DNA of 64,000 bases from Candidatus Moraniibacteriota bacterium (GCA_016699795.1 CP065011.1:482474-546473); one strand, 5' to 3'. Positions 27,924 to 45,146 are shown, counted from the stretch's first letter. Program-made: numbers and translations. Notes: generated by a model not told the origin, from the letters alone.

Positions 27924-29075
27924 ATGGTTAGTTGCACAAATAGTAAAGATAGTCATCTTTTATCTAATGGTCGGCATAGATCCCGACTCTTCCATTTATT
28001 ACAAAGAGCTCGAAAAACTCGTAAGTATTCAGCTATAGCGGTTGTTTTAATGAGTGTTTTTCTTGTTTCTACTAATAATATTTCTACTCGTTATAAAACG
28101 AAAGATCAATTAGAAAAAGAAGTTTTTACGCATTCTTTTAAGACAAATACTATTGAAGAGAAAACTTCAAGAAATACCATTGCTGCTTTGCCTTATATTC
28201 AAACAAACAACACAACAACTTCACAACTAGAACAAAAACAGGAAATCTCCATTCTTCCACCTGATGCAAAAACTCAATCTGCTTTTTCTTATTTTTCAGC
28301 ACAATCCTTTGTAGCTACTGTTAATGCTATGGAAAAAGATCCTGAAATAGACGGTGGTATGACTCTTTATGTAGTACAAGAAGGGGATACGGCGAGTTCG
28401 ATAGCCTCAAAACATAATATAAACATCAACACACTCTACTGGGCAAACAATATTGAAAATATTGATGAGATTATGCCAGGAGACACCCTCTTCATCCTTC
28501 CTGTTTCTGGACTAAAATATAGTATTAAAAATGAAGACACTCTCAAAAGTCTTGCGGATAAATACGAAGTTAGTGAAGATCAAATCATAGCCTTTAATGA
28601 ACTTCCAGCAAATGGACAATTAAAAGAAGGTGATGAAATTATTATTCCGGGAGCAAAAAAGGATATTCCTGAACTGGAACAAGAAGAAGTATCACCAAAC
28701 ACAAATCTTTTTGCACCGAGGCAGTATACTGGATCTAACGGAAAAAATGTTGAGAACAGACATGGTAAACCCAACACTTTTCCTTATGGTTATTGTACGT
28801 GGTATGTAGCTCAACAAAAACACGTTCCTTGGCGAGGAAATGCTGGAACGTGGCTTTATAACGCCAAAGCCTCAGGATATGCAACAGGAAGTAAACCAAA
28901 AACAGGATCTATCGTTGTTACTACTGATAATACTTATTATGGCCATGTTGCTGTAGTAACGAAAGTATCGGAAGATTCTATTACTGTAAAAGAAATGAAT
29001 TATAAAGGATGGGGAGTTGTTAATACTCGAGATATTAGTATCAAAGATCGACGTATTAAAGGGTATATCTATTAG
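27924..29075 (+). CDS. membrane-anchored peptidoglycan hydrolase: 2x LysM + CHAP domain
   Basis: 383 aa. N-terminal TM. Two LysM repeats (YVVQEGDTASSIASKHNINTLYWANNI... and YSIKNEDTLKSLADKYEVSEDQIIAFNEL...). C-terminal CHAP-like domain with candidate catalytic Cys (YGYCTWYVAQ) and His (YYGHVAVVT). Confidence 0.75.
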   Translation: MVSCTNSKDSHLLSNGRHRSRLFHLLQRARKTRKYSAIAVVLMSVFLVSTNNISTRYKTKDQLEKEVFTHSFKTNTIEEKTSRNTIAALPYIQTNNTTTSQLEQKQEISILPPDAKTQSAFSYFSAQSFVATVNAMEKDPEIDGGMTLYVVQEGDTASSIASKHNININTLYWANNIENIDEIMPGDTLFILPVSGLKYSIKNEDTLKSLADKYEVSEDQIIAFNELPANGQLKEGDEIIIPGAKKDIPELEQEEVSPNTNLFAPRQYTGSNGKNVENRHGKPNTFPYGYCTWYVAQQKHVPWRGNAGTWLYNAKASGYATGSKPKTGSIVVTTDNTYYGHVAVVTKVSEDSITVKEMNYKGWGVVNTRDISIKDRRIKGYIY

Positions 29076-29287: not shown

Positions 29288-31498
29288 ATGAAACAAATAC
29301 AAAATAAAAAAAGTTATTTCATTTTCTTTTCCACCTTCCTTTTCTTACTAGTTATTTTTCTTCCTACAATACTTTACGCTGCGCCAGGAGAGCCTAGTCT
29401 TGTAGATAAAGTTTTCAGCCCTATTATTAGCCTTTTACTCGGTATTCTTTGGTTAATAACTTCTCTTATTAATGTCGCGGCTGTTTTATTTGGCTATGTT
29501 GTTGATGCTAAAAGCTTTTCAACTATAATGAATAATCCAGCTATAAAGACTTCATGGATTGTTGTTCGTGATGTCCTTAATATCGCATTTATTCTTGTTC
29601 TTCTTTTTAGTGCTTTCGCTACTATATTTCAAATTGAAAAATTCCATGTAAAAAAAATCCTTCTTACTCTTATCATCATGGCTCTTTTAGTAAATTTCAG
29701 CTATCCCATATCGAGATTTATTATCGATACCGCAAACATCCCCATGTATCATATCGCCACTGTTGTTTTTGGCGAGGGCGCTGATTGGATGGCTGTTCTA
29801 GCGGGAGAGTCTGGATTAGGGGATCTCTTCAAGCCTGCAGCAGAATTTGAAAATCAACAATATAAAGATCTTTTAGCTGCTATTCTTTTTTCATTCATTT
29901 TTCTCATAACTTTAATGGCTCTTTCTGTTTTATTCCTCATTCGATTGGTAGTTCTTATTATACTTGTCATCTTTTCTCCTCTCGGTTTCGTAGCGGCAAT
30001 TCTCCCTTCAACCAAAAATTATGCTGATGATTATTGGACTGCCTTAATGAAAAATGCATTTTTTGGTCCCATTATGATGCTCATGCTCGCTCTCAGTATT
30101 TTTATTCTCAAGGCATTCCAAAGCGCAAGTATTGAAGGATTTGCTTCAGGAAATGCAGCTTCTACTTCTGGTGAAACAGCTCTTGCTCAATGGGCATTTG
30201 CTTTTGTTCCTGTTGTCATTCTTTGGGGAGGTATAATTTGGTCCCAAAAACTTGGTGCTGTAGGGGCAAGTTTAGTTATGAGTAAAGTTGATAGTTATTC
30301 CAGAAAAAGTTGGGGTGGTGTAAAACCCATTCTCTGGGCGGGAGATCGTGTAACAGGGGGGCTTACTAAAGGGATAGATGGGGGATTACGTTTTTTAGGA
30401 TATAATCGAGCTGCTCGAGTCAATTCAGCCTACAATCAAGCGAAAGCAGTTCCATCAGCAGTAAAAAAAGTTTATTGGGATGATAAAGTAGCCGCGAGAA
30501 AACAAGAAGCAGAAGATGCTCGAAACCTTGTAACAGGAAGATTACCTCTTAGCGGAACAACTGTTCGAAATGCCCACGAAAGACTCGAACAACAACAAAT
30601 ACAAAGAAAAAAGAAAGAAAATGAAGAGAAAAATTATACCATGTCCAACTATCGCAATGATTTAGCTGAATCGAACGACAAAGTAACCCGAATCGCGGCT
30701 GCTCAAGGAATGGCTCAAAAAGGATTTACGAACATTCCAGACATACAGAGAGCGCTCCAAGCTAGTAGAGGAGATTTGGATACGCAACAGTTAATCTTAC
30801 AAAAAATTCCCAAAGAATTAGCGTCGCAAATCAATCCAGATCAAATTCGTGGCTTAAGTAATAACCTCACAAATATAAATACTCTCCAAGAAAATCAACC
30901 AGGTCTCTCAAATGCTGACGCGCAGGCGGAAATTGATACCCTTAGAAACACGTTCGATTCCAAACTAAGAGAGAACCTTAAAGTAAAAAATACAGATGCT
31001 CTCGTTCAAAGTTTGTCGAATATACAAGGAAATACTAGACTCTCTTCCCAAATTTTAAAAAATGCGGATGCTGGAGCATTAAGAAATCTTAATACACAAC
31101 AAACAATAGCTCTTAGAAATACGCTAACTGACAGAGCCCGCATTCAAACTATTAATCCCCATCTCGATGCAACAGAAGTTGATGCTGAAATTGAGGAAGT
31201 AACACGAAGTCTTAGAAATGCTTTACGGGATGCGGGAAGAATAGATCTCTATATCGATAGTGAACTTGATCCAGCATATGTTGGTACTCGCACAAGAGAG
31301 CAAATCGTCAATACAACAGTCAGGAGTATGGATAATAAATCTCTTGGAAGCCAAAATGAGGCGTTCTATAGAAGTCAGGCTGTTCAAAACAATTTTGCAA
31401 ATATGACGCTTAACAATCCTCAAAGATTTAATGATGTAATGACACATATGAGCAATGAAAATCTAAACCATCTGCAAAGTCCAACTCTTCTCCCTTAA
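29288..31498 (+). CDS. VirB6/TrbL/PrgH-like polytopic membrane protein with ~330-aa hydrophilic C-terminal domain
   Basis: 736 aa. Signal peptide then ~8 TM helices. Long polar repeat/coiled-coil C-terminus. Architecture and position in a locus with VirB3-like and VirB4 genes suggest a T4SS channel component. Confidence 0.45.
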   Translation: MKQIQNKKSYFIFFSTFLFLLVIFLPTILYAAPGEPSLVDKVFSPIISLLLGILWLITSLINVAAVLFGYVVDAKSFSTIMNNPAIKTSWIVVRDVLNIAFILVLLFSAFATIFQIEKFHVKKILLTLIIMALLVNFSYPISRFIIDTANIPMYHIATVVFGEGADWMAVLAGESGLGDLFKPAAEFENQQYKDLLAAILFSFIFLITLMALSVLFLIRLVVLIILVIFSPLGFVAAILPSTKNYADDYWTALMKNAFFGPIMMLMLALSIFILKAFQSASIEGFASGNAASTSGETALAQWAFAFVPVVILWGGIIWSQKLGAVGASLVMSKVDSYSRKSWGGVKPILWAGDRVTGGLTKGIDGGLRFLGYNRAARVNSAYNQAKAVPSAVKKVYWDDKVAARKQEAEDARNLVTGRLPLSGTTVRNAHERLEQQQIQRKKKENEEKNYTMSNYRNDLAESNDKVTRIAAAQGMAQKGFTNIPDIQRALQASRGDLDTQQLILQKIPKELASQINPDQIRGLSNNLTNINTLQENQPGLSNADAQAEIDTLRNTFDSKLRENLKVKNTDALVQSLSNIQGNTRLSSQILKNADAGALRNLNTQQTIALRNTLTDRARIQTINPHLDATEVDAEIEEVTRSLRNALRDAGRIDLYIDSELDPAYVGTRTREQIVNTTVRSMDNKSLGSQNEAFYRSQAVQNNFANMTLNNPQRFNDVMTHMSNENLNHLQSPTLLP

Positions 31499-32683: not shown

Positions 32684-33163
32684 ATGATGCGATTTCCTGT
32701 TCCACAATTTATCGGAGTTGAAGATAAGATTGCAGGACCCCTCACATGGAAGCAACTTTATTGGATGATTGCTATGGGAGTATTTCTTCTCCTTCTATGG
32801 AAAGCTTTTTCCCTTATTGTTTTCATCCCTCTTGGTGGACTTGTTGTGAGTATTTTTACAGCATTTGCTTTCTATAAACCATGGGGTCAACCCCTTTCTA
32901 AAATGGTATGGCATGCTATGATATTTCTATTTCGACCCAAAACATATACCTGGCAACAAACACCCACTGCTGCAAAGATCATCGGGGGGGACATTGCCAT
33001 TCCGATAGCTCCAAAAAAAGAAGATCCTAAAAAAACATTACAACGAATACAAGATTATTCAGAAGTTCTTGATAATCCTACAAAGAAAACTTTTTCAGAT
33101 TCAATGGTGACTCCGAAATCAAAACGTGATATACTTTCAATATTCTCAAAAAAAGAAAAATAA
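32684..33163 (+). CDS. VirB3/PrgI-like small two-TM protein
   Basis: 159 aa with two adjacent hydrophobic helices (WMIAMGVFLLLLWKAFSLIVFIPLGGLVVSIFTAFAF). Sits directly upstream of virB4, the conserved virB3-virB4 order. Confidence 0.35.
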   Translation: MMRFPVPQFIGVEDKIAGPLTWKQLYWMIAMGVFLLLLWKAFSLIVFIPLGGLVVSIFTAFAFYKPWGQPLSKMVWHAMIFLFRPKTYTWQQTPTAAKIIGGDIAIPIAPKKEDPKKTLQRIQDYSEVLDNPTKKTFSDSMVTPKSKRDILSIFSKKEK

Positions 33164-33166
33164 CCT

Positions 33167-33874
33167 ATGTCAACAGAAAACCTACATCAGCCAAATCTTT
33201 CTCCAAAAAAACAAGGACCTAGTACTTTAGAGTATGTAGACGTTCAGGAAATTCATGATGGCATTGTAATACTCAGAGATGGCTCTTTTCGAGCTATTTT
33301 AGCTGTTTCTTCTCTTAATTTTGATCTCAAGTCTAGTGATGAACAAGATGCTATTATTTTTCGTTATCAGCAGTTTCTTAACTCTCTTGACTTTCCTCTT
33401 CAGTCCACTATTCATTCTCGAAGAATAAATATCGCACCTTATCTCGAAATGCTCAAAATTCGTGAAGCTGAACAAACAGATGAGCTTATGCGTATGCAAA
33501 TTTATGAATACCGTAATTTTATTAAGAATCTCACAGAAGTTCAAAATATCATGACAAAGTCTTTCTTTGTTGTTGTACCGTTTTTTCCTGTTGAAAAAAC
33601 AAAAAAAGGTATCTTTTCGGAACTTTTTCAAATGTTCAATCAAGATCTTGTTATCAAACACAAACTTGAAAAATTTGAAACTTACAAAAGCCAGCTCTTG
33701 CAAAGAGTTGATCATGTTGTTGCTGGTCTTTCTGGAATGGGGCTACGACTCGCGCTTCTAACCACAGAAGAAACCGTAGAACTTCTTTATAATTCATACA
33801 ATCCATCTCTCTTTAGTATGAATATTATTAATGACATCGAAAGTATGGAAACTCAAAATAGAATAACTCGATAA
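33167..33874 (+). CDS. VirB4 ATPase, N-terminal domain (separate ORF)
   Basis: 235 aa. LEYVDVQEIHDGIVILRDGSFRAILAVSSLNFDLKSSDEQDAIIFRYQQFLNSLDFPLQ matches the N-terminal region of Gram-positive VirB4/TcpF/Orf16-type ATPases. Ends with TAA 2 nt before the next ATG, in a different frame. Confidence 0.6.
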   Translation: MSTENLHQPNLSPKKQGPSTLEYVDVQEIHDGIVILRDGSFRAILAVSSLNFDLKSSDEQDAIIFRYQQFLNSLDFPLQSTIHSRRINIAPYLEMLKIREAEQTDELMRMQIYEYRNFIKNLTEVQNIMTKSFFVVVPFFPVEKTKKGIFSELFQMFNQDLVIKHKLEKFETYKSQLLQRVDHVVAGLSGMGLRLALLTTEETVELLYNSYNPSLFSMNIINDIESMETQNRITR

Positions 33875-33876: not shown

Positions 33877-35682
33877 ATGGACAATACTACAACAGAAAAA
33901 AAAGATTATCAGAAAGAAGACGAGCTCTATCAACAAGGAATGTCTTCTGTTCGAGGTTTTATAGCTCCTGCTGCTATGAAAATTTCTTCATCTTTCTTGG
34001 AGATGGGGAGTATCTTTTCTCGCACACTCTTTGTTATGACTTATCCGAAATATCTTAATAACGGTTGGTTTTCTCCCATAATTAATATTGATTTTTCCAT
34101 GGATATTGCCATGTTTATGCATCCCATGGATTCTTCTATTGTTCTCAAAGATCTTCAAAAACAATCGGCTCGAATTTATTCTCAAATTCATCTAGAAGCG
34201 GAAGGTGGTAAAGTTCGTAATCCTATTCTAGAAGCAGCTTTAGAGAATGTTGAGCGTTTACGAGATGATCTTCAAACTGGTACTGAAAGATTTTTTCGAT
34301 TTGGTATGTATCTTACGCTTTACGCATCATCCTCACAAGAATTAAATGATATAACGAATCAAATAGAATCTATTTTAGAAGCTCAGATGGTCTATTCCAA
34401 ACCCGCAGTTTTACGAATGGATGAGGGATATTCTTCTACCATACCATTAGCTAATGATGAGCTTGATTTAGCAAATAATCTTAACACCTCTCCTGTATCA
34501 ACAACCTTTCCTTTTATCTCTTCAGAACTTTCTTCTAATGAAGGTATTCTTTATGGAATAAATCGTCATAATAATAGCCTCGTTCTCTTCGATCGTTTTC
34601 ACATGGAGAACGCGAATATGGTTATTTTTGCAAAATCAGGTGCTGGAAAAAGTTATACTGTCAAACTTGAGATTCTTCGATCTCTTATGTTCGGAACTAC
34701 TGTTCATATTATTGACCCAGAAAATGAATATCAACATCTTTGTGGGGCTGTTGGAGGAACCTATGTGCCCATTTCACTTAACTCCTCCTATCACATTAAT
34801 CCTCTTGATCTTCCTAAGGTTGAGCCCGGAAAAGATGATCCTGAAGGAATTTTCCGAAGTCATGTAGCCTCTATAATCGGACTTCTTCATCTTATGCTTG
34901 GTTCCATAACTCCGGAAGAAGATTCTTTACTCGACCGTTCGATACGAGAAGCTTATGCCATAAGAGATATCACTCCTCATTCTAATTTTTCTATACTCAC
35001 AAGAGAACAAATGCCCACTATGAGTGATGTTCAGAATGTTCTTTCTAATGTACAGGGTGCTCAATCCCTCGCTGCACGTCTAGAAAAATATACTGAGGGA
35101 ATCTTTTCTGGATTTCTTAATCAACATACTAATGTTGAAACGTATGGAATACTCACAACGTATAATATTCGAGATCTGGAAGAAGAACTTCGCCCCATCG
35201 CTATGTATGTTGTTTTACAGCATCTCTGGAATGAAATGCGTCATGAGCTCAAACGAAGACTTCTTGTTATCGATGAAGCTTGGGTTATGATGCAAAATGA
35301 TGATGCAGCTTCTTTTGTTTTTGGTATTGCTAAAAGATGTCGAAAATACTACACAGGATTGACTACTATAACACAAGATATTGCTGATTTTATGAGCTCC
35401 CGTTATGGAAAACCTATTGTCACAAACTCATCTATTCAATTTCTTCTTCGTCAATCACCTGCATCTATTGATGTTATTCAAGATACTTTTTATCTTACAG
35501 ATCAAGAAAAATTTCTCCTCCTTGAAAGTAATGTAGGGGAAGGAATTTTCTTTGCTGGCCTCAAACATGTTGCTATACGTGTCGTCGCTTCTTACTCAGA
35601 AGATCAAATTATCACCTCAAATCCTCAACAAATTCTAGAAATTGAACAGGCTAAATCTGATTTTGAAAAAAGTAATCTCTAA
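33877..35682 (+). CDS. VirB4/TrbE/CagE-family conjugation/T4SS ATPase, catalytic part
   Basis: 601 aa. Walker A IFAKSGAGKSYTV. Walker B RRLLVIDEAWVMMQ. ...YPKYLNNGWFSPIIN... block typical of VirB4. Confidence 0.85.
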   Translation: MDNTTTEKKDYQKEDELYQQGMSSVRGFIAPAAMKISSSFLEMGSIFSRTLFVMTYPKYLNNGWFSPIINIDFSMDIAMFMHPMDSSIVLKDLQKQSARIYSQIHLEAEGGKVRNPILEAALENVERLRDDLQTGTERFFRFGMYLTLYASSSQELNDITNQIESILEAQMVYSKPAVLRMDEGYSSTIPLANDELDLANNLNTSPVSTTFPFISSELSSNEGILYGINRHNNSLVLFDRFHMENANMVIFAKSGAGKSYTVKLEILRSLMFGTTVHIIDPENEYQHLCGAVGGTYVPISLNSSYHINPLDLPKVEPGKDDPEGIFRSHVASIIGLLHLMLGSITPEEDSLLDRSIREAYAIRDITPHSNFSILTREQMPTMSDVQNVLSNVQGAQSLAARLEKYTEGIFSGFLNQHTNVETYGILTTYNIRDLEEELRPIAMYVVLQHLWNEMRHELKRRLLVIDEAWVMMQNDDAASFVFGIAKRCRKYYTGLTTITQDIADFMSSRYGKPIVTNSSIQFLLRQSPASIDVIQDTFYLTDQEKFLLLESNVGEGIFFAGLKHVAIRVVASYSEDQIITSNPQQILEIEQAKSDFEKSNL

Positions 35683-36311: not shown

Positions 36312-36328
36312 TTAATTATTACCTTTTT

Positions 36329-37037: not shown

Positions 37038-40000
37038 ATGCGCACAAGAAAAATTTCACGAATATTTGCATTTTTTCTTTTGATCAGCCTTAATATTACT
37101 TATATTTCTCCCGTTTTTGCCCAATTTAGTGGTCTTATTGAGGAAGCTGCGAGTATTATTGAGAGACGTTATCATCTCAATCTTGGATCCATACAAAACC
37201 AGGGTGAGTATTTTAATGTTTCCGATCAGAAAAAACTTGCTCCCGAACTTATTATGAATTTCACCCCAACAGATCCGAAGCCTGGGCAAGAACTTACAGC
37301 GAAATCTTTTCCTATGTATTTCGAAAATAATAAAGAAGAATTATATTATACATGGTATCTACAAAAAGAAGGTTGTGATGATCTAGATTCTAAAAATAAT
37401 TTAGAAAAATGTGATGCCGATGGAGATGGTACGCTTACCATTGAAGATTGGAAGGTGGAAGCTTCCCGTATAATTGCTAATAGCGTTATTGAAAGAGATG
37501 AAATTAAATATGACAATGATGATGATAATGATGGATTTGCTTATGTCCATACTGGTAAAAAAGTAGCTGTCTATGGTGGGGCTGCTCGAAGGCAAATACT
37601 TGAACGATGTTATATTCTGGATCGAGAAACTGGAGAACAACATGAATTAATTAAAGGAAAGGCTCCAGATGGAACTCCCGGAAATAATCAAAATCCATTC
37701 GATTGTGATCTGACAACACATAACGTTCGTTGTCTCGATCGTGCTGCTACACCCTCTGGATGTAGTTTACCTACTTGTTTTTCACATCCTTCACCCTATT
37801 TTACAGCGTTAGCTCCTGATTGTCTCTCTGATAATAAAATTTCTTGTGTAAGAGGAAAACCCTATTGTATAGCAAAAATCTATACACTTGATGATGACCC
37901 CGCGACTTATTTAGAAAAAGAACAATGTCATGATGACTACCCTGACTTTTGTGGCTCTCTTTATATAGATGCTAAAGAGTTAACTTCTTGTGATAATGGA
38001 GGTAATAATGGAAGTACTTATGCGACAGCTGGCTGTAAACACCTTTTTCCCAATGCTAAAGGAAAAGAATTTATAACAAACAACAAACAGGGGACTTCAG
38101 TCAATGAAGTTACAGGGGATGGGGAATACGAATTACAAGAAGAAAAATTTTGGGTTACCGATCCTCATAACGATGATACCGCCAACACAGGAAATGGTGA
38201 TGAATCCAATATTGTTGGTATGGGCATAGACACTTTTACATGGAATTATCAATTAGGCGATAAGGTTGGTTTGGTTATCGAAGGAACTTCCCAAATTCCA
38301 ACTAAATATGATAATCATTCCAAAATGATTATGTGGGCTTTTTCTAAAAATGATTGTCCCGTAACAGGAAAGGGTGTTTATTATCCCCAGGTAAAAGACT
38401 ATGCCGTTAAAATCCATACTACTACAATGGATCTTGATAGTTGTCTTGAAAAAAATCTTATCGATCCTCGAGAAGGGGGTCAAAAAAATAATATCGATGT
38501 AAGCTTGGTATATTCTCCTGAAAAACCAATGAATAATTCTCGTGTTGTTGGTGGTGAAGATACTGCTCCAGATAAAGATGATAGCCTTGGTTTTGGCGAA
38601 ACACTTACGATTAATTCTTCTATTTCAAATTCAAAAAAAGACGAGTCTCATATTTCTTATACCTGGAAAGTTTTTATTAGCAAAGATGGGACTTTCGATC
38701 CTAGAAAATATGTAAGGGAATCGGATCCTATTAAAACGGGAGATGAATCTACCGCAGGATGGGTTGAAATAACAAAAGAGCTTGTAAAATATAAACTCGT
38801 CGATCTCGTTGAGGGAAATAATATTTCAGATTTAGATATATCTCTCAATATAACTGAAAAGCTTTTAAAAGAAGCTGATCCTTCTCTAACTATTGAAAAG
38901 GTTTTTCCTGATTCTTTAGGAAATATTGGACATTTGCGAGTACGTCTTTATGTAAAAGAAGAATTTGCACCCGATGTATCTGCTGATGGAGTTTCTACGA
39001 TTATAATACCCGTTAATAATAGCGGGAAGAGACTTACCTCCTCATTAGCATTTCTTGATGATATAAAACCTAAAACTTTCATTAATGAAGATCCTAAATC
39101 TACAGCTAATAATAAAAAAGTTCTTATCTGTGAAGATAAACTTACTCTTGCTTCTGGCATTTGTTATGTAACCAAAAATGAAGTTATCGCTGCTGAATTA
39201 GGAAAGTTGGAAAATGAAGATGCTACTGAAAAACTTACTAATTTCTCATGGGAGCTTGACGGGAAACCCCTTCTTTGTGATAAGAATGTTTCTAGAAAAT
39301 ATTGTGAGGATGACAAACAAACTCGATACAATTTTTTTGCTATCACAGGAAAACCAGGAGAGCGTCATTCTTTAACACTAACAGCATTAGAAGAAGTAAC
39401 TGGTCAAGTAAAAACATTTACACAAACCTATGAAGTTGTCGATCCTTTTATAGAAATAATCCCCTTTGATGATAATGTTTGGCCTAAATATCTTGGAGCT
39501 TATCGAGACGCTCAAGGTAAATATCATGAAGATATAAGCACTGAAGTTTTTCAAGGTTATTTTGGGGACTCTGCCTATCTACAGGCTGTATTTTTTCCTG
39601 ATTTCTTGAAAAAAAGAGCTCGAAAACAATGGCTCTGCTCATCAAATCTTTGCGATACTACTCACATGGAGATTGGCGCAAATGAACTTCCTACCGTTTA
39701 TTTCCCTATGATAGATCCTCCGGGACATACTTATAATGTATCTATGGAAGCGATTTATCAACAGAACAGGGAAGTACGAGAGGCTATGCAAAGAATATGG
39801 GGAATGCGTATATTTGAAACTACTGATTATTGGATAAAGAAGGCTGTTCGTATTGAAGTTCTTGAAAATAATGAAGAGGAAGATATAGCTCTTTTAACTC
39901 CAAAAACATTTTTTGCCTCTGTTCTTTCAAACACCCCTAAACATATTTGGTTTGCAACGCAAGCATTTTTAAGCATTCTCGTTTCTATATTCATATTAGG

Positions 40001-40040
40001 AATTCTTTATTCTTTAGGAAGATCTAATCGTTCATCATAA
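37038..40040 (+). CDS. large Cys-rich cell-surface protein with signal peptide and C-terminal TM anchor
   Basis: 1000 aa. N-terminal signal (MRTRKISRIFAFFLLISLNITYISPVFAQ). Many Cys. Ca-binding-like CDADGDGTLTIEDW. C-terminal hydrophobic anchor FLSILVSIFILGILYSL followed by a basic tail. Confidence 0.6.
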   Translation: MRTRKISRIFAFFLLISLNITYISPVFAQFSGLIEEAASIIERRYHLNLGSIQNQGEYFNVSDQKKLAPELIMNFTPTDPKPGQELTAKSFPMYFENNKEELYYTWYLQKEGCDDLDSKNNLEKCDADGDGTLTIEDWKVEASRIIANSVIERDEIKYDNDDDNDGFAYVHTGKKVAVYGGAARRQILERCYILDRETGEQHELIKGKAPDGTPGNNQNPFDCDLTTHNVRCLDRAATPSGCSLPTCFSHPSPYFTALAPDCLSDNKISCVRGKPYCIAKIYTLDDDPATYLEKEQCHDDYPDFCGSLYIDAKELTSCDNGGNNGSTYATAGCKHLFPNAKGKEFITNNKQGTSVNEVTGDGEYELQEEKFWVTDPHNDDTANTGNGDESNIVGMGIDTFTWNYQLGDKVGLVIEGTSQIPTKYDNHSKMIMWAFSKNDCPVTGKGVYYPQVKDYAVKIHTTTMDLDSCLEKNLIDPREGGQKNNIDVSLVYSPEKPMNNSRVVGGEDTAPDKDDSLGFGETLTINSSISNSKKDESHISYTWKVFISKDGTFDPRKYVRESDPIKTGDESTAGWVEITKELVKYKLVDLVEGNNISDLDISLNITEKLLKEADPSLTIEKVFPDSLGNIGHLRVRLYVKEEFAPDVSADGVSTIIIPVNNSGKRLTSSLAFLDDIKPKTFINEDPKSTANNKKVLICEDKLTLASGICYVTKNEVIAAELGKLENEDATEKLTNFSWELDGKPLLCDKNVSRKYCEDDKQTRYNFFAITGKPGERHSLTLTALEEVTGQVKTFTQTYEVVDPFIEIIPFDDNVWPKYLGAYRDAQGKYHEDISTEVFQGYFGDSAYLQAVFFPDFLKKRARKQWLCSSNLCDTTHMEIGANELPTVYFPMIDPPGHTYNVSMEAIYQQNREVREAMQRIWGMRIFETTDYWIKKAVRIEVLENNEEEDIALLTPKTFFASVLSNTPKHIWFATQAFLSILVSIFILGILYSLGRSNRSS

Positions 40041-40059: not shown

Positions 40060-41196
40060 ATGAAAAATATTTTTATTATAAGCTCTGTTCTCTTTAGTAT
40101 TACTCTACTTTCTTGGTTATTATTTGTTTTTTTTGTTAAAGATCCCAAAGAGATAGAAGAGAAGCCTTCTCCCATTAGTGAGATTCAAGAAAAAGAAGAA
40201 CCCAAAGAAACCAGCTCGCCTTTTCAAATTTTTAGTGATTTCCCTATTCTTTCTCCACTTCTTTCGGAAGACGGTTCTTCTATTTTTGGTTATCACAAAG
40301 AAACGTCCACACTTTATTCTCTTAATGTAGAAAGTGGAGAAAAAAAAGTCCTTCAAGACACACAACTCACAAATCCCCTCATTGCTCTCTGGGCAAAAGA
40401 TCCTCGTATTTCCATACTCAAAACTTCTCCCCAAAAAAATGCTGAGTATTTTCTCGTGGATAGTAATTCTCAAACAACAACACCTCTTCCTTCCAATATT
40501 ACCTATTTAAATTGGGATAATCTATCTGAAAAAATTATTTTCATTCAAAGAAAAAAGCCTGAGGAGATACTTTTTTCCACGGCAAAACCTGATGGATCAG
40601 AACCAAAAGAACTTCTTACTATCACAGAGAAAGGAAGAATTTCTCTTATTCCTGTACCACAATCCCCAGCTATAGCTTATTGGCCACAAAGCGCTAATAC
40701 AAAAATTTCACCACTTTTTCATATTAATCTTAGTTCCGGCACAAAAACGGAAATATTTTCAGGAAGATATGGGGGAGATTATCTCTATTCTCCTGATGGA
40801 GAAAAAATTCTTCTTAGTTGGTCTCCAGAAAAAAACAGTTCCAAACTCACACTCGCTCTCTTAAATAAATATGGCGGTCAATATAAAGATCTTGGCCTTC
40901 CTACATTAGTATCTAAATGTGCATGGGGAAAAAATACTGTACATATTTATTGCGCTGTTCCCACAGGAATACCCCAAACAGCTGTTATGCCCGATGATTA
41001 TCTTAATGGAAAAGTATCTACCGTAGATTCTCTTTGGAAAATAAACGTAGAAACTGGAAAAAAGGAACGTGTCGTAGAACTCTCTGATATAAAAGAAACT
41101 TTTGATGTTACTAATATTTTTATCGATGCAAGCGAGCAATTTCTTTATTTTACGAACAAATCCACAAATATCCTCTATAAAGTAAAACTCCCTTAA
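40060..41196 (+). CDS. membrane-anchored PD40/TolB-like beta-propeller protein
   Basis: 378 aa. N-terminal TM. Repeated ...SPDGEKILLSWSP..., ...KPDGSEP... blocks typical of PD40 propeller blades. Confidence 0.5.
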   Translation: MKNIFIISSVLFSITLLSWLLFVFFVKDPKEIEEKPSPISEIQEKEEPKETSSPFQIFSDFPILSPLLSEDGSSIFGYHKETSTLYSLNVESGEKKVLQDTQLTNPLIALWAKDPRISILKTSPQKNAEYFLVDSNSQTTTPLPSNITYLNWDNLSEKIIFIQRKKPEEILFSTAKPDGSEPKELLTITEKGRISLIPVPQSPAIAYWPQSANTKISPLFHINLSSGTKTEIFSGRYGGDYLYSPDGEKILLSWSPEKNSSKLTLALLNKYGGQYKDLGLPTLVSKCAWGKNTVHIYCAVPTGIPQTAVMPDDYLNGKVSTVDSLWKINVETGKKERVVELSDIKETFDVTNIFIDASEQFLYFTNKSTNILYKVKLP

Positions 41197-41211: not shown

Positions 41212-42489
41212 TTGAAAATAAGAAAAAATATAGTAACCTCTATGTTTAAAAATAAAATATTTAAAAAAATAAACATCCTTCTTTTGAATATCAAAGAAAG
41301 AATTATTTTTTTTGTTTTTATTCTATCTTTTTTTATTATTCAAAGCCCCTCTGTTTTTGCCATGACTGAAGCTGAATGCGAAGCAAAAAGTGGTGCTGGT
41401 CCGAATGAGAAAGCTTATTGCTCTTCTACTATGTGCTCTACTGGGGAAGGGAAAGAGACTTATTTAGGAGAATGTGATTCACTTATCTCGCCACATTGTT
41501 GTAAAAAAGGAGATTACACTACAACTACAAGTTGCGCTGCTTTGGGTGGTACTTGTAGTGGCCACGCTAGTTGCCCCAGCCTCACCTCTCGTGTTGGTCT
41601 CTGTGATAAATTAGCTGATGGTGGAACTGATACTTGTTGTAAACCAACAAAGATTGTTTATCCTGATGGATCAACACCAAAAGCCAATTCAACCTCTTCT
41701 TTCGACTATACCCCCCTCGAACCCATTCCAGGTGCTACAAATGATACATCTACTCTTGCAGGATTTCTTGAAGGTCTTTATTTTTTTGTTATGTGGAGTG
41801 CAGGAGTGATGGCTATGTTCATGATAGGGTTGGGAGGTTTCTGGTATCTTACTTCAGCAGGAAACACTTCTCGTGTAGGAGAAGCTAAAACTATTATTGT
41901 TAATGCTCTTTTGGGACTTTTAGTTCTTACGTTTACATGGCTTATTCTCTACATCATTAATCCAGATCTTACTAAGTTAGATTGGAGTAGCTTGGAGGAA
42001 ATTCTCATTGATCGAAAGGGGTCCTCCTTTAACAATCCTCCTCAAATTGGTCCAGGAAATCCTAATAATGGTAATGGATCTTGTAGCCCAGTTTCCAATG
42101 GACCTTGTTCGGTTGAAAATTTAAAACAAACCTGTCTTTCTTCAAATGTAAATGTATTTTCACAAATATGTAATAAAGAAAGTAGTGGAGACCCTCTAAA
42201 ACCAAGTGTCGTTGATCGTTGTAAAAAAAGAGGTAATAATGAGCCCTTTTCTATAGGTCTTTATCAAATCAATCTTACTGTTCATACTATAGGCGGTCTT
42301 AATTGTCCTTCTGCCTTCAATGGAAAAAATTATGATTGTATAGTAATTAATAAGGATCTTTATGAAAAATGCGTTAAGGCGGCACAAGATCCCAATCTTA
42401 ATATAAAAAAGGCTTGCGAAATTTCAGGTAATGGTAATAATATAGGTCCTTGGAAAAATACAGCTATTACTTGCGGTCTTTATAAATAA
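41212..42489 (+). CDS. chimeric protein: signal peptide + Cys-rich domain + T4SS-pilin-like two-TM hairpin + lytic transglycosylase (SLT/VirB1-like) domain
   Basis: 425 aa. Hairpin LAGFLEGLYFFVMWSAGVMAMFMIGLGGFWYLTSAGNTSRVGEAKTIIVNALLGLLVLTFTWLILYIINP resembles TrbC/VirB2-type pilins of Gram-positive/CPR T4SS. C-terminal ...ICNKESSGDPLKPSVVD...FSIGLYQINL... resembles the SLT catalytic E-S and GLMQI motifs. Confidence 0.6.
   Translation: MKIRKNIVTSMFKNKIFKKINILLLNIKERIIFFVFILSFFIIQSPSVFAMTEAECEAKSGAGPNEKAYCSSTMCSTGEGKETYLGECDSLISPHCCKKGDYTTTTSCAALGGTCSGHASCPSLTSRVGLCDKLADGGTDTCCKPTKIVYPDGSTPKANSTSSFDYTPLEPIPGATNDTSTLAGFLEGLYFFVMWSAGVMAMFMIGLGGFWYLTSAGNTSRVGEAKTIIVNALLGLLVLTFTWLILYIINPDLTKLDWSSLEEILIDRKGSSFNNPPQIGPGNPNNGNGSCSPVSNGPCSVENLKQTCLSSNVNVFSQICNKESSGDPLKPSVVDRCKKRGNNEPFSIGLYQINLTVHTIGGLNCPSAFNGKNYDCIVINKDLYEKCVKAAQDPNLNIKKACEISGNGNNIGPWKNTAITCGLYK
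41695..42003 (+). repeat. 309-nt cassette, nucleotide-identical to 43614..43922 (pilin-like hairpin-coding segment), copy 1
   Basis: Direct comparison of the two stretches shows identity over 309 nt, encoding SSFDYTPLEPIPGATNDT...DWSSLEEI. Flanking sequence on both sides is unrelated. Confidence 0.85.
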
Positions 42490-42499
42490 AAATAGCTTT

Positions 42500-43054
42500 A
42501 TGAAAATAAATTATCGATTTTTTATTCTTTTTTTTCTTTCTCTTATTTTTTTAGTTGGGACTTTTTTTATAACACTACAGTATATTAACTTTCCTTTACT
42601 CCCAAATAAAAAAGAAACTCTAGAAAAAAAAGTGGGTGAAGAAAATAAACCTAAAAAAGAAAGAATTATTGAAATTCTAGACCATTCCAAATACACTCAT
42701 GAAAAAATAGGCTCGGATATAATATCTCAATCAAGAAAAATAGATGATACTATTTATATCTTTCTCGAAAAAAATAAAATTAGTGAATATGAAAATCCTG
42801 ATTATGTCATTTATTATTTTTTAAAAAAAAGTCCTAATGGGGAGATAAAACCTGAGGGCTCCGTAAGAATCATTCTTCAAAAAAAGCCATTTGAAGAGCT
42901 TAGAGCCCTTGCGGAAAAAGATTTTCTTGATAAACTTGCTCTTACAAAAGAGGATGCTTGTCAACTTGATATTTCAGAAACTATTTTATTTGAGATAGAT
43001 CCAGAGCATGGTGGGGTTGATTTTGGATTAAGTTTTTGTGAAAACTCTTTATAA
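42500..43054 (+). CDS. N-terminally anchored hypothetical protein (possible VirB8-like accessory)
   Basis: 184 aa. Single N-terminal TM then soluble domain. Assignment by architecture only. Confidence 0.35.
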   Translation: MKINYRFFILFFLSLIFLVGTFFITLQYINFPLLPNKKETLEKKVGEENKPKKERIIEILDHSKYTHEKIGSDIISQSRKIDDTIYIFLEKNKISEYENPDYVIYYFLKKSPNGEIKPEGSVRIILQKKPFEELRALAEKDFLDKLALTKEDACQLDISETILFEIDPEHGGVDFGLSFCENSL

Positions 43055-43205
43055 AGATTTCACTATTATTATAAATCCCTTCATAAAAACTTCTTCTAAC
43101 ATACTTTATTTTTCTTTCCAAAAAACGCATTGTCTTTTATAATTTAAAATAAGATATTTCAAATTATAAAATTAAATTGTCTTATTGTTTTTAAAATAAA
43201 ATAAT

Positions 43206-44420
43206 ATGAAAAATAAATTCTTTCCTTTTTTCTTTTCTTTTCTATTATTTTATTCATTCCTTCCGATTCAAGCTCAAGCAGGATTTACTTCAGATGCGGA
43301 ATGTTTTGATGCTTTTGGAGTACCAACAGCAAAGAATTCTGCTTGTGCGCAAGGGTATTATGAAGGTGGTGATATTTGTTACAAATTAGCTGATGGTACA
43401 ATTAACTGTAACTTAACAAAGTGTTGTATAGACGAAGAAAAAGGAAATAAAAATGATTTAACAAAAAAATGCCAAACTGAAATGGGGGGGACTTATATCA
43501 CAGGGAATATCTGCTCTACTGGTGATGATGAGAAAGGAACATTAAAAGATCCAAAAAATCCAACATATACCTACAAATGTTGTAAAAAAAATTATACAAC
43601 TCCTTCATCAGATTCTTCTTTCGACTATACCCCCCTCGAACCCATTCCAGGTGCTACAAATGATACATCTACTCTTGCAGGATTTCTTGAAGGTCTTTAT
43701 TTTTTTGTTATGTGGAGTGCAGGAGTGATGGCTATGTTCATGATAGGGTTGGGAGGTTTCTGGTATCTTACTTCAGCAGGAAACACTTCTCGTGTAGGAG
43801 AAGCTAAAACTATTATTGTTAATGCTCTTTTGGGACTTTTAGTTCTTACGTTTACATGGCTTATTCTCTACATCATTAATCCAGATCTTACTAAGTTAGA
43901 TTGGAGTAGCTTGGAGGAAATTGCAGTAGATGTGGGCTCTGAAACAGGAACAGGAAATAAATCAACAATTGATACACCAACAACCGTGGGTTGTGGGAAA
44001 ATAGTTGAAGCTGCGCATGCTATGGTAACTAGTGGCTGTAAATATAGCCAAGCGAAACGAAATGCTTGTACTGGAAATCCAGGGTATACAGATTGTTCTG
44101 ATTTTACATATCATGCCTATAAAAAAGCTGGTTGTAGCACTGGTTTTGGGAATACCACAGCTACTATGGTAGGTAAAACACCTACATTTAATGGAGATCA
44201 ATCAAGTCTTAAAGCTGGTGATGCTCTTGTTTATAATAATGGGGGTAGTGGTCATGTTGTTATATGTGAACAAGATGGCTGTAATACAATAACTCATGCG
44301 TCGGGAGAAAAAGCTGGTTTAAAAAAGGGAGCTTCCTCTGGTTACATATTTAAAAAACCGAACCTTCATGTTATTCGAGCAGAAACATTTTGTGCCAATG
44401 CTAAAGATGCTTCTTGTTAA
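43206..44420 (+). CDS. chimeric protein: signal peptide + Cys-rich domain + T4SS-pilin-like two-TM hairpin + NlpC/P60-or-CHAP-type cysteine peptidase domain
   Basis: 404 aa. Central 103 aa identical to the paralog at 41212..42489. C-terminal ...GYTDCSDFTYHAYKKAGC...GDALVYNNGGSGHVVIC... has Cys and His spaced as in NlpC/P60/CHAP papain-like peptidoglycan peptidases. Confidence 0.6.
   Translation: MKNKFFPFFFSFLLFYSFLPIQAQAGFTSDAECFDAFGVPTAKNSACAQGYYEGGDICYKLADGTINCNLTKCCIDEEKGNKNDLTKKCQTEMGGTYITGNICSTGDDEKGTLKDPKNPTYTYKCCKKNYTTPSSDSSFDYTPLEPIPGATNDTSTLAGFLEGLYFFVMWSAGVMAMFMIGLGGFWYLTSAGNTSRVGEAKTIIVNALLGLLVLTFTWLILYIINPDLTKLDWSSLEEIAVDVGSETGTGNKSTIDTPTTVGCGKIVEAAHAMVTSGCKYSQAKRNACTGNPGYTDCSDFTYHAYKKAGCSTGFGNTTATMVGKTPTFNGDQSSLKAGDALVYNNGGSGHVVICEQDGCNTITHASGEKAGLKKGASSGYIFKKPNLHVIRAETFCANAKDASC
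43614..43922 (+). repeat. 309-nt cassette, copy 2 (identical to 41695..42003)
   Basis: See copy 1. Offset between copies is 1919 nt. Confidence 0.85.
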
Positions 44421-44429: not shown

Positions 44430-45146
44430 ATGACAAAAAAAATTATTTTTCTTATCGTTATCTTTCTATTCCTTCTAATTTTGGGAATATTCTTTTTTTT
44501 CCAAAAAAACAAAATAACACAAGAAGATTCTCCCACTAAAAATATACAAAAAATAGAAATTCCTACTGAGAAGGAAAAAGAAACAGCACTTATTTCAAAT
44601 GATTTACAAAATTTTCTTTCTACGCCGACATCAGAAGAAATAACGTGGTTCTCTCCAAAAAATACAGAAAAGAATGAGATTCTTCCTATAAGAGAATTTT
44701 TTCAAAAAAATTCTCTTCGTCTTTCTGTTGAAATGCAGACAAAGATCGATTGGAAAGACTATGATCTTTTTTTATGCCCATCTCCAGATGAAAATGGAGT
44801 GGGAGTCCGTCTTACTCAAATAGCAAATCCCCAAACAGGAAAACCTACTTATGAAGAAATACTTCAAGCTCTCGATACTTGGTCAAGCGTAATACCAATA
44901 GATCTTTGGTTATTATTTTTCAAAAATCCTGAAGAAACAAAAAATATACAATCCGTTTTTGTTGAAAATAAAGAGTATTCTTATGATTCTGCCTATGAAT
45001 GGAGATATAAAAAAGCAATTGTAACATTTGTTAGTGGAGAGAAAAAAGAATTTTATTATGGAACAGTTGCTCATAATATCCTTATTACGCAATCTCTTTC
45101 TTGTGTTCACAAAGTCTCCAAACAACTTTACGATCTTGTCCCATAA
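44430..45146 (+). CDS. N-terminally anchored hypothetical protein
   Basis: 238 aa. N-terminal TM (IIFLIVIFLFLLILGIFFFF) then soluble domain. 3' end overlaps the convergent gene by ~60 nt. Confidence 0.4.
   Translation: MTKKIIFLIVIFLFLLILGIFFFFQKNKITQEDSPTKNIQKIEIPTEKEKETALISNDLQNFLSTPTSEEITWFSPKNTEKNEILPIREFFQKNSLRLSVEMQTKIDWKDYDLFLCPSPDENGVGVRLTQIANPQTGKPTYEEILQALDTWSSVIPIDLWLLFFKNPEETKNIQSVFVENKEYSYDSAYEWRYKKAIVTFVSGEKKEFYYGTVAHNILITQSLSCVHKVSKQLYDLVP

What the first reader, a model, noticed from the sequence alone, without database searches (positions are those of the whole stretch)
41212..44420. Two paralogous chimeras: Cys-rich ectodomain + VirB2/TrbC-like pilin hairpin fused to different peptidoglycan hydrolases (SLT vs NlpC/P60-CHAP)
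Both proteins have a signal peptide and divergent Cys-rich N-domains. Both share an identical two-TM hairpin with the GGFxYLTSAGN...GEAKTII..AL.GL pattern of Gram-positive/CPR T4SS pilins. They carry different C-terminal hydrolases: a lytic-transglycosylase-like domain (ESS...GLYQI) in one and a papain-like peptidase with C...H spacing (DCSDFTYHAY...GHVVI) in the other. Predicted topology is out-in-out, placing both the Cys-rich domain and the hydrolase outside the membrane. A pilin module covalently coupled to VirB1-like and PrgK/TcpG-like hydrolase activities in one polypeptide is not a described architecture, as far as I know. It could represent a cell-wall-piercing pilus subunit, or a membrane-tethered hydrolase pair that opens the envelope for the T4SS.
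Basis: partly seen in the sequence, partly recalled or inferred. Interest (0 to 1): 0.85.

Follow-up and report, generated by a model that had tools for sequence, protein, structure and literature searches.

The report
Pilin-like anchors carrying interchangeable cell-wall hydrolases
Two neighbouring genes in the type IV secretion locus of an ultra-small (Moranbacteria) bacterium put a DNA-identical pilin-like membrane hairpin in front of two different cell-wall-cutting enzymes, each followed by its own partner gene, which suggests this poorly understood secretion machine breaches cell walls with pilin-borne enzymes.

Summary
ORF1 (41212/41242-42489) and ORF2 (43206-44420) each have a signal peptide, a Cys-rich ectodomain, a two-helix hairpin of Pfam family PF18895 (T4SS_pilin) and a peptidoglycan hydrolase. 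ORF1 carries a lysozyme-like SLT_3 domain with an intact Glu-Ser and GLxQ motif. ORF2 carries NlpC/P60 with an intact Cys-His-His.

The genes sit at the end of a monoderm-type T4SS cluster (LysM-CHAP, VirB6-like, PrgI/VirB3, TrsD, VirB4) near dnaA, in a Candidatus Moraniibacteriota genome.

- The hairpins are identical over 309 nt of DNA with razor-sharp edges. Eight further same-genome gene pairs show 94-100% identical hairpin DNA, against 65-76% between lineages. This is concerted evolution.
- The hairpin acts as a recombination hub: the C-domain has been replaced, and N1-hairpin-C2 deletion chimeras occur in metagenomes.
- Each cargo type has its own downstream membrane-anchored partner gene (SLT_3 with the 184-aa family, P60 with the 238-aa family), as in effector-immunity pairs.
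- Cargo-bearing pilins are the norm in Moranbacteria T4SS loci.

The fusion is recorded silently in databases, but I found no description in the papers I could search. Pilus incorporation and the target wall are untested. I rate it a new variant of a known kind, interest about 0.7.

The parts
41212..42489 (+). ORF1 (IPN70_02585): signal peptide, 2 x 6-Cys ectodomain, PF18895 hairpin, SLT_3 lysozyme-like hydrolase. Probable true start is ATG 41242.
41362..41655 (+). ORF1 N-terminal Cys-rich ectodomain (aa 51-148, 12 Cys, two helix-plus-strands repeats)
41695..42003 (+). Copy 1 of the exact 309-nt repeat. It encodes the pilin-type module: YTPLEPIPG motif, helix 1, SAGN-R/K loop, helix 2, INPDL motif.
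42079..42486 (+). ORF1 C-terminal SLT_3 / GH23-like lysozyme domain (aa 290-425; E323-S324, GLYQ 349-352, W414)
42500..43054 (+). 184-aa protein with an N-terminal membrane anchor. Its family follows SLT_3-type cargo pilins in 8 of 9 lineages. Putative cognate inhibitor or immunity protein.
43206..44420 (+). ORF2 (IPN70_02595): signal peptide, Cys-rich ectodomain, identical PF18895 hairpin, NlpC/P60 endopeptidase
43614..43922 (+). Copy 2 of the exact 309-nt repeat (pilin-type module)
43983..44417 (+). ORF2 C-terminal NlpC/P60 domain (aa 260-404; C297, H350, H364)
44430..45146 (+). 238-aa protein with an N-terminal membrane anchor. Its family follows P60-type cargo pilins in 7 of 7 lineages and is absent where the cargo is M15-like. 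Putative cognate inhibitor or immunity protein.
40060..41196 (+). 378-aa membrane-anchored protein with a weak TolB-like beta-propeller signal. Its family lies beside the pilin gene in 67 of 80 species loci.
37038..40040 (+). 1000-aa secreted protein with a C-terminal anchor; a conserved member of the cluster, function unknown
33877..35682 (+). VirB4-like ATPase (TraG P-loop, AAA_10)
33167..33874 (+). TrsD/TraD-like protein, resembling the N-terminal part of VirB4
32684..33163 (+). PrgI family protein (VirB3-like)
29288..31498 (+). Polytopic VirB6-like membrane protein. The ortholog carries TrbL_3 (weak), and there is a weak hit to the CD3337/EF1877 family.
27924..29075 (+). LysM + CHAP peptidoglycan hydrolase at the head of the cluster, a conventional VirB1-type candidate

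Best explanation
ORF1 and ORF2 are cargo-bearing members of the Patescibacterial VirB2-like pilin family (PF18895). They belong to the chromosomal, monoderm-type T4SS of a Moranbacterium.

Proposed mechanism:
1. Sec export and signal-peptide cleavage leave the two-helix pilin module in the membrane, with its basic loop in the cytoplasm. The disulfide-rich N-domain and the enzyme domain lie outside. (Inferred from sequence.)
2. The shared pilin module is the handle by which the T4SS (VirB4, VirB3, VirB6) recruits both proteins. It clusters or polymerises them at the machine. (Inferred from synteny and from tandem-fused hairpin proteins.)
3. The two heads are complementary wall cutters. ORF1 is a GH23-like muramidase or lytic transglycosylase that cuts glycan strands. 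ORF2 is an NlpC/P60 DL-endopeptidase that cuts stem peptides. Together they supply the two activities that PrgK- and TraG-type T4SS hydrolases combine in one chain. (Homology and intact catalytic residues shown; activity inferred.)
4. The membrane-anchored protein encoded just downstream of each gene is a cognate inhibitor or immunity factor. It would keep the enzyme harmless beside the producer's own wall until the pilin module is extracted. I favour the neighbouring (host) cell wall as the final target. (Inferred from covariation only.)
5. Gene conversion keeps the pilin module identical between paralogs. The module also serves as the crossover point for swapping N- and C-terminal modules. 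(Shown comparatively.)
For: Domains, folds and catalytic residues.

T4SS context. The cluster holds PrgI, TrsD, VirB4, a VirB6-like protein and LysM-CHAP, close to dnaA. Synteny is conserved in L001-L005. In the 80 species-level loci, 67 have the 378-aa neighbour, 20 the 1000-aa protein and 11 VirB4 within the 6-kb flanks.

Pilin family.
- The hairpin profile retrieves 26,570 clusters at E<=1e-10. Typical members are 130-160-aa stand-alone CPR pilins, and two of them also carry PF04956.
- ORF1 and ORF2 are the only hairpin genes in the 64-kb window.
- Published work finds the pilin array essential in Southlakia, and peptidase and lysozyme homologues downstream of virB4 essential too (PMC10633639; PMC12102498).

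Oligomerisation hint. Single polypeptides carry 3-17 tandem hairpins. One of them (P0202) has three hairpins plus an SLT-like head.

Concerted evolution.
- Exact shared DNA between adjacent paralogs: 309 nt (window), 248, 319, 348, 243, 362 and 96 nt, and 100% identity over 267 nt in L092.
- A two-contig pair in one genome is 94% identical.
- Between lineages the hairpin DNA is only 65-76% identical.
- The flanking domains are orthologous across lineages, so the gene pair is old.

Module swapping. ORF2's N-domain is orthologous to that of P0012, but the C-domain is P60 instead of M15-like. N1-hairpin-C2 chimeras replace the two-gene unit in 5 contigs from MEGAHIT, JGI, Logan and a scaffolded assembly.

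Cargo-partner covariation. SLT_3 cargo is followed by the 184-aa family in 8 of 9 lineages. P60 cargo is followed by the 238-aa family in 7 of 7. Neither follows the 12 M15-like cargo genes found among the 80 species loci.

The organism makes its own peptidoglycan: a class A PBP lies at 56299-58929.
Against: No T4SS pilus has ever been demonstrated in Patescibacteria, and the name 'pilin' for PF18895 is itself an inference.

A direct link to canonical VirB2 was not obtained:
- hhalign probability against Agrobacterium VirB2 was 0.8%.
- The hairpin profile gave only spurious hits against solved structures.

Each subunit would carry about 110 aa on one terminus and about 160 aa on the other. That could hinder VirB2-type helical packing.

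The window's own sequences score below the Pfam cut-offs when scanned as whole proteins.

The partner genes have no recognisable domains. Their role rests on gene order alone. The commonest cargo type (M15-like) has no such partner.

DNA identity of the hairpins could be a neutral result of gene conversion and carry no functional meaning.

A separate LysM-CHAP hydrolase in the cluster could already cover the VirB1 role.
Confidence: 0.55

Rival explanations
1. These are self-directed T4SS wall remodellers, the analogues of VirB1, PrgK, TraG and TcpG. The hairpin is only a membrane tether and never polymerises. The enzymes open the producer's own peptidoglycan so the channel can assemble. The downstream proteins are regulators or scaffolds rather than immunity factors.
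For: The genes lie in a monoderm-type T4SS cluster. Monoderm T4SS hydrolases classically combine SLT and CHAP/P60 activities (PMC12102498). The P60 profile hits Tn916-like conjugative-element hydrolases. The organism has its own peptidoglycan synthase. The linkers of about 20-40 residues would reach the producer's own wall.
Against: It does not explain why the anchor is always a PF18895 module with all the conserved extramembrane motifs, scoring the same (about 130 bits) as in stand-alone pilins. It does not explain why hairpins stay identical even between paralogs on different contigs. It does not explain cargo-specific partners or the variable Cys-rich N-domains. A LysM-CHAP hydrolase is already present.
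Confidence: 0.3
2. The proteins are polyprotein precursors. Proteases cut at the conserved YTPLExIPG and INPDL boundaries. This would release a soluble Cys-rich peptide, a mature minimal pilin of about 100 aa, and a soluble hydrolase, by analogy with the N- and C-terminal processing of TrbC and VirB2.
For: The boundary motifs are nearly invariant and coincide with the ends of the stand-alone pilins. The linkers on both sides are predicted to be disordered. Terminal processing and cyclisation of TrbC and VirB2 is established knowledge (from memory, not tested here).
Against: No dedicated protease such as TraF was identified in the cluster. In stand-alone pilins the motif directly follows the signal peptide, so it may simply be a structural part of the pilin.
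Confidence: 0.08
3. They are ordinary housekeeping autolysins for growth or division that happen to lie next to the T4SS genes.
For: NlpC/P60 and SLT enzymes are common autolysins. The nearest solved relatives include CwlO, LytE and MepS.
Against: The position between the same T4SS-cluster genes is conserved in dozens of species. The fusion is to a family found near virB4 in 1,135 assemblies (PMC12102498).
Confidence: 0.05
4. The identical hairpins are an assembly or polishing artefact, or the ORFs are chimeric.
For: A 309-nt exact repeat can confuse short-read assemblers. The N1-hairpin-C2 contigs could be graph shortcuts.
Against: The source contig is 1.19 Mb. The same pattern appears in at least 8 further independent assemblies made with different assemblers, each with its own lineage-specific hairpin sequence. 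The chimeric contigs include k=141 MEGAHIT contigs and a Logan contig that cross the repeat without a break. Inferred from how such assemblers behave, this argues that they are real deletion alleles.
Confidence: 0.01

Closest known systems
VirB2-like pilin arrays of Patescibacterial T4SS (Pfam PF18895; Southlakia epibionticum ML1, Nanosynbacter lyticus TM7x)
   Same: Same Pfam family. Same signal peptide plus two-helix hairpin. Same kind of relaxase-less, monoderm-type T4SS locus near the replication origin. [quoted passage not shown]
   Different: Published arrays are small stand-alone pilins that are highly divergent from each other (mean 25%, maximum 54% identity). Here the pilin modules are DNA-identical within a genome. 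Each carries an N-terminal Cys-rich domain and a C-terminal peptidoglycan hydrolase.
Monoderm T4SS peptidoglycan hydrolases (PrgK of pCF10, TraG of pIP501, TcpG, CwlT, Tn916-like Orf14/16)
   Same: Encoded in the T4SS cluster. Membrane-anchored. They combine a muramidase/SLT activity with a CHAP or NlpC/P60 peptidase activity. The P60 profile hits solved Tn916-like hydrolases.
   Different: Those enzymes join both activities in one chain on a single N-terminal anchor. Here the activities are split over two proteins, each on a pilin-family hairpin, each with a variable ectodomain and its own downstream partner gene.
Agrobacterium VirB1 / VirB2
   Same: A lytic transglycosylase and a pilin working in one T4SS. 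VirB1 promotes T-pilus formation (from memory).
   Different: They are separate proteins in a diderm. No sequence-level link between this hairpin and VirB2 could be shown.
Specialised ('evolved') secretion-system structural proteins and polymorphic toxin-immunity systems (VgrG3/TsiV3, Tse1/Tsi1, CDI and Rhs; Xanthomonas T4SS effectors X-Tfe/X-Tfi)
   Same: A conserved delivery module with variable C-terminal wall-degrading heads. A cognate gene lies immediately downstream and co-varies with the head type. Recombination at the conserved module swaps heads. Tse1 is among the structural matches.
   Different: The carrier here is a T4SS pilin-family hairpin, not a T6SS spike or a soluble effector recognised by VirD4. 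Immunity function is unproven, and the M15-like heads lack a partner.

Membership tests
Pfam PF18895 T4SS_pilin (Patescibacterial VirB2-like pilins) | Match to the family HMM | tested here: met
   The window sequences alone score 19.9-23.4 bits, below the cut-off of 26.6. However, 35 of 36 close relatives match (best 2.6e-11). 79 of 87 and 80 of 84 wider relatives match. A profile of the hairpin retrieves typical 130-160-aa PF18895 pilins.
Pfam PF18895 T4SS_pilin (Patescibacterial VirB2-like pilins) | Signal peptide followed by two long hydrophobic helices joined by a short loop with a basic residue | tested here: met
   Hydropathy. AF2 helices 182-214 and 219-249 with pLDDT about 85-90. Invariant K226 after the SAGN loop.
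Pfam PF18895 T4SS_pilin (Patescibacterial VirB2-like pilins) | Encoded near virB4 and other T4SS genes | tested here: met
Canonical TrbC/VirB2 pilins (PF04956) | Detectable sequence or profile homology | tested here: not met
   No PF04956 hit for the window proteins. 1 of 36 relatives hits at E 0.0014. hhalign against A. tumefaciens VirB2 gives probability 0.8%. The profile finds no pilin among solved structures.
Canonical TrbC/VirB2 pilins (PF04956) | Pilin-like helical hairpin fold | tested here: inconclusive
Canonical TrbC/VirB2 pilins (PF04956) | Polymerises into an extracellular filament with lipid | not testable with these tools
   Needs cryo-EM or cryo-ET. The tandem multi-hairpin proteins only hint at self-association.
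GH23 lytic transglycosylase / lysozyme-like (Pfam SLT_3 PF18896, SLT PF01464) | HMM match at or above the curated cut-off | tested here: met
   The isolated C-domain scores 28.4 bits against 27. 14 of 19 relatives hit SLT_3 and 5 hit SLT.
GH23 lytic transglycosylase / lysozyme-like (Pfam SLT_3 PF18896, SLT PF01464) | Catalytic Glu-Ser motif and the GLxQ motif | tested here: met
   E323-S324 and S-x-G-L-x-Q are invariant in 19 sequences.
GH23 lytic transglycosylase / lysozyme-like (Pfam SLT_3 PF18896, SLT PF01464) | Lysozyme-like fold | tested here: met
NlpC/P60 papain-like peptidoglycan endopeptidases | HMM, profile and fold match | tested here: met
   Pfam 21.1 bits is below the cut-off of 23. 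The family profile hits CwlO at 2e-6 and MepS at 5e-6. Foldseek gives probability 0.99-1.0, with TM 0.70 to LytE.
NlpC/P60 papain-like peptidoglycan endopeptidases | Catalytic Cys-His plus a third polar residue | tested here: met
   D-C297-S and H350 are invariant. H364 is present in ORF2 but variable in some relatives.
Monoderm T4SS hydrolases of PrgK/TraG/CwlT type | SLT and CHAP/P60 domains in one polypeptide on a single N-terminal anchor | tested here: not met
   The activities are split between two proteins, each on a two-helix pilin-type module.
Monoderm T4SS hydrolases of PrgK/TraG/CwlT type | Required for T4SS function | not testable with these tools
   Needs genetics in a cultivated relative.
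Polymorphic effector-immunity systems | Conserved delivery module with variable C-terminal toxin heads | tested here: met
   Heads found: SLT_3, SLT, NlpC/P60, CHAP, C39-like, VanY and M15/LAS-like. A head replacement is documented.
Polymorphic effector-immunity systems | Cognate gene immediately downstream that co-varies with the head | tested here: met
   SLT_3 with the 184-aa family in 8 of 9 lineages. P60 with the 238-aa family in 7 of 7. No partner for M15-like heads.
Polymorphic effector-immunity systems | Partner binds and neutralises the head; head is toxic to target cells | not testable with these tools
Beta-defensin-like 6-Cys domains (for the N-terminal ectodomain) | C-x(4-8)-C-x(3-6)-C-x(7-13)-C-x(4-12)-CC spacing and an HMM match | tested here: inconclusive
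   The motif occurs in 30 of the 330 proteins fetched, in nearly all cases upstream of the hairpin. Repeats from relatives hit Defensin_beta_2 (3.5e-4; 21.4 bits against 22.2) and Defensin_beta (0.004-0.04). The window's own N-domains give no hit. Disulfide connectivity is not testable.

The most novel reading that the evidence does not exclude
The Patescibacterial T4SS builds a filament, or a pilin cluster, whose subunits are 'evolved pilins'. One genome-specific VirB2-like module carries interchangeable peptidoglycan-degrading heads and defensin-like binding modules. Cognate immunity proteins protect the producer. The organelle would be a polymorphic, recombination-shuffled tool for drilling through the host cell wall, and would explain why this T4SS is essential for epibiotic life.
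Probability: 0.25. Interest if true: 0.9.

Novelty: new variant of a known kind. Interest (0 to 1): 0.7.

Why it matters
The T4SS of Patescibacteria is essential for epibiotic growth in the one species tested, but its role is described as completely unknown (PMC11665869; PMC12857230).

A covalent fusion of its pilin-family module to wall-cutting enzymes links the pilins to cell-wall breaching, in the manner of a Rosetta-stone fusion. It also fits the report that separate peptidase and lysozyme genes next to virB4 are essential in Southlakia.

The fusion qualifies the published conclusion that most VirB2-bearing Patescibacteria lack a VirB1 function. In Moranbacteria that function is built into the pilin gene.

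The cargo-specific partner genes give directly testable candidates for effector-immunity pairs.

The DNA-identical hairpins are a clear natural case of segmental gene conversion acting as a hub for domain shuffling.

Tried and rejected
Searches and tests that gave nothing useful:
- The hairpin profile against solved structures gave only weak, spurious hits to RNase K, a small membrane protein.
- The SLT_3 profile against solved structures gave nothing significant.
- hhalign of the hairpin profile against a single VirB2 sequence gave no signal. A proper VirB2/TrbC family alignment was not available.
- NCBIfam gave no hit for ORF1, ORF2 or either partner protein. Pfam gave nothing for the partners or the 1000-aa protein.
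A narrower alignment, A5, was used instead.
- Supplements of PMC12102498 list pilins only as 'VirB2'. They do not flag fusions, and the IPN70 genome is not found in the stored (truncated) text of the supplements.
- Model coordinates are not exposed. The N-domain fold, its disulfide pattern and the pilin superposition could not be examined separately.

Ideas considered and rejected:
- Assembly chimera (see rivals).
- Recent whole-gene duplication as the cause of the identity. The flanks are non-homologous, while the pair is orthologous across lineages.
- Purifying selection alone. All synonymous sites are identical too.

Full report
**1. What is there**

The window comes from a 1.19-Mb contig of a Candidatus Moraniibacteriota MAG; the two genes are IPN70_02585 and IPN70_02595. 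ORF1 (41212-42489, 425 aa from a TTG) and ORF2 (43206-44420, 404 aa) are separated by a 184-aa gene and followed by a 238-aa gene, all on the + strand.

The two proteins are similar only in a central segment of about 105 aa. At DNA level that segment is an exact 309-nt repeat, 41695-42003 = 43614-43922. In-register identity falls to 20-43% within the next 30 nt on both sides.

Hydropathy shows a signal-type N-terminus and two hydrophobic helices joined by the loop YLTSAGNTSRVGEAK. All 22 and 19 cysteines lie outside the hairpin. This fits an out-in-out topology with both flanking domains outside the cytoplasm.

ORF1 most probably starts at ATG 41242, which gives a classic signal peptide ending SPSVFA|MTEAEC. 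The NCBI start at 41362 would delete it.

**2. The domains**

*Whole-protein Pfam.* Scans give T4SS_pilin (PF18895) in both proteins, SLT_3 (PF18896) in ORF1 and NLPC_P60 in ORF2. All are just below the curated cut-offs.

*Hairpin.*
- 35 of 36 relatives hit PF18895, best E 2.6e-11.
- A hairpin profile finds 87,296 clusters at E<=1e-3 and 26,570 at E<=1e-10 among 1.84 billion representatives.
- In the word-indexed search the profile retrieves typical 130-160-aa stand-alone Patescibacterial pilins. Two of them also carry TrbC/VirB2 PF04956.

*ORF1 C-domain.*
- On its own it passes the SLT_3 cut-off (28.4 against 27).
- E323-S324 and S-x-G-L-x-Q are invariant in 19 relatives.
- The AF2 model has pLDDT >95 in this domain.

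*ORF2 C-domain.*
- Foldseek matches it to NlpC/P60 structures: Cg1735, a Thermus DL-endopeptidase, LytE (TM 0.70) and Tse1, with probability 0.99-1.0 for the best of them.
- Its family profile hits CwlO, MepS/Spr and Tn916-like conjugative-element hydrolases.
- D-C297-S and H350 are invariant, and H364 completes the triad.

**3. Context**

Upstream lie:
- a LysM-CHAP hydrolase
- a polytopic VirB6-like protein
- PrgI (VirB3-like)
- a TrsD-like protein
- a VirB4 ATPase
- two small membrane proteins
- a 1000-aa secreted protein
- a 378-aa membrane-anchored protein with a weak TolB-propeller signal

Downstream are Wzy-like and glycosyltransferase genes, yidC and rnpA. Then come dnaA (53002-54447), dnaN and a class A PBP. 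No coupling protein or relaxase was seen.

This matches the published picture of the Patescibacterial T4SS: monoderm (FATA-like), relaxase-less, and near the origin (PMC12102498).

ORF1 and ORF2 are the only hairpin-bearing ORFs in the 64 kb.

**4. Relatives**

*Synteny.* The whole cluster, including the pilin-SLT_3 / small gene / second pilin arrangement, is conserved in independent metagenome assemblies L001 and L002-L005.

*Species loci.* A scan of one genome per species returned 80 loci, mostly labelled Moraniibacteriota/Moranbacteria.
- 84 hairpin ORFs were found, and 80 hit PF18895.
- Most are 290-530 aa, i.e. cargo-bearing.
- 67 loci have the 378-aa neighbour next to the pilin gene.
- Of the 13 loci without it, 10 carry short hairpin ORFs of 135-253 aa.

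*Cargo types recognised.* SLT_3, SLT, NlpC/P60, CHAP, C39-like and VanY. The commonest head is a Cys/His-rich domain with an H..D...HxH motif, present in 39 of 84 ORFs. Its profile weakly hits the zinc-hydrolase fold of Sonic hedgehog (E 0.004) and Peptidase_M15 families. It is probably a LAS-type peptidase. So the recognisable heads are nearly all wall hydrolases.

**5. Concerted evolution and module shuffling**

Wherever two subfamily genes are adjacent, their hairpins are 95-100% identical in DNA:

| Locus | Longest exact shared stretch |
|---|---|
| window | 309 nt |
| L001 | 248 nt |
| L002/L004 | 319 nt |
| L021 | 348 nt |
| L022 | 243 nt |
| L024 | 362 nt |
| L053 | 96 nt (94.6% identity overall) |
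| L092 | 100% identity over 267 nt |

- Two hairpin genes on different contigs of one genome are 93.8% identical.
- Between lineages the same segment is only 65-76% identical.
- The flanks are orthologous between lineages: N1 39%, C1 64% and 40%, the intervening gene 31%, N2 48%.

The pair is therefore old, and the identity, which includes all synonymous sites, reflects ongoing gene conversion. This contrasts with published Patescibacterial pilin arrays (mean 25%, maximum 54% identity).

The hairpin is also a crossover point.
- ORF2 keeps an N-domain orthologous to that of P0012 but carries P60 where relatives carry the M15-like head.
- N1-hairpin-C2 proteins (P0005, P0020) occur in five contigs. 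In these, exactly the interval between the two repeats is missing.
- Several of these contigs come from k-mer assemblers that would normally break at an unresolved 319-nt repeat. I read them as real deletion alleles. That is an inference.

**6. Cargo-specific partners**

- The 184-aa family follows SLT_3-type genes in 8 of 9 lineages.
- The 238-aa family follows P60-type genes in 7 of 7.
- Neither follows M15-like heads.
- In L092 both pairs occur in one locus.

Both partners have a single N-terminal anchor and no known domain. This is the gene-order signature of effector-immunity or enzyme-inhibitor pairs.

**7. Mechanism**

Shown:
- the architecture
- intact catalytic motifs and folds
- T4SS synteny
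- hairpin homogenisation
- head replacement
- partner covariation

Inferred:
- The pilin module targets both enzymes to the T4SS and lets them cluster or co-polymerise. Single chains with 3-17 tandem hairpins, one of them with an SLT-like head, hint at self-association.
- The muramidase and the endopeptidase act together on peptidoglycan.
- The partners hold the enzymes inactive next to the producer's wall.

Speculative:
- The heads are carried outward on a pilus to the host wall.

The main rival is a purely self-directed VirB1/PrgK-like role, with the hairpin as a simple tether.

**8. Novelty**

Precomputed Pfam annotations already record PF18895 together with PF18896, PF00877, PF01464 or PF02557, and NCBI calls some members 'pilin'. 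I found no paper describing such fusions, the identical hairpins or the partner genes. I rate it a new variant of a known kind, with real bearing on what the essential Patescibacterial T4SS does.

Noticed in passing
window 41362-41655 and 43281-43604; relatives P0015, P0019, P0003, P0004, P0059, P0228 and others: The N-terminal ectodomains are built from one to three 6-Cys repeats, C-x5-8-C-x3-6-C-x8-13-(G-x-)C-x5-12-CC. AF2 predicts a short helix plus two or three strands per repeat. Several repeats from relatives have beta-defensin Pfam families as their top hit, all below threshold (Defensin_beta_2 at 3.5e-4, Defensin_beta at 0.004-0.04). The window's own repeats give no hit. This could be convergence on a cysteine pattern.
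   Followed up: partly
proteins P0194-P0217, e.g. P0195, P0197, P0202: Single polypeptides contain 3-17 tandem PF18895 hairpins, up to 1775 aa. P0195 has six near-identical hairpins. P0202 has three hairpins followed by an SLT-like Cys-rich domain. These 'polypilins' suggest that the hairpins self-associate.
   Followed up: partly
L006-L010 (proteins P0005, P0020): Metagenome contigs carry a single N1-hairpin-C2 chimera in place of the two-gene unit. The interval between the two hairpin repeats is exactly deleted. This is seen in five contigs from different assemblers.
   Followed up: partly
window 41212-41362: The NCBI annotation starts IPN70_02585 at M51 (375 aa). That removes the signal peptide which all homologues have. 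ATG 41242 or TTG 41212 is the more likely start.
   Followed up: yes
L047 and L052 (Bacterium BMS3Abin15, two contigs): The same genome has two cargo pilins on different contigs, with 93.8% identical hairpin DNA. One has an M15-like head and lies in the T4SS cluster. The other has an unrelated, Cys-free 110-aa tail and lies elsewhere.
   Followed up: partly
L011, L014, L018, L022, L024, L025 and about 20 other loci: Many MAG records titled 'uncultured Bdellovibrionales bacterium' carry the same Moranbacteria-type pilin/T4SS locus. The organism label of those records looks wrong.
   Followed up: no
A8 alignment (heads of L012, L016, L019 and other loci): The commonest cargo head in Moranbacteria has invariant GG..H...G...D and HxH motifs. 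Its profile hits the Sonic hedgehog N-terminal zinc-hydrolase domain (E 0.004) and weakly hits Peptidase_M15_3 and M15_4. No Pfam family reaches E 0.001.
   Followed up: partly
window 43121-43217: The AT-rich 150-nt spacer upstream of ORF2 contains two 50-nt direct repeats 47 nt apart. Each is about 70% similar to the region just inside the start of ORF1 (family D2). This may be a duplicated promoter or leader.
   Followed up: no
window 27924-36994 and 53002-58929: The T4SS cluster lies about 9-25 kb from dnaA and dnaN. It has no coupling protein or relaxase in the window. A class A PBP shows that the organism makes its own peptidoglycan.
   Followed up: partly
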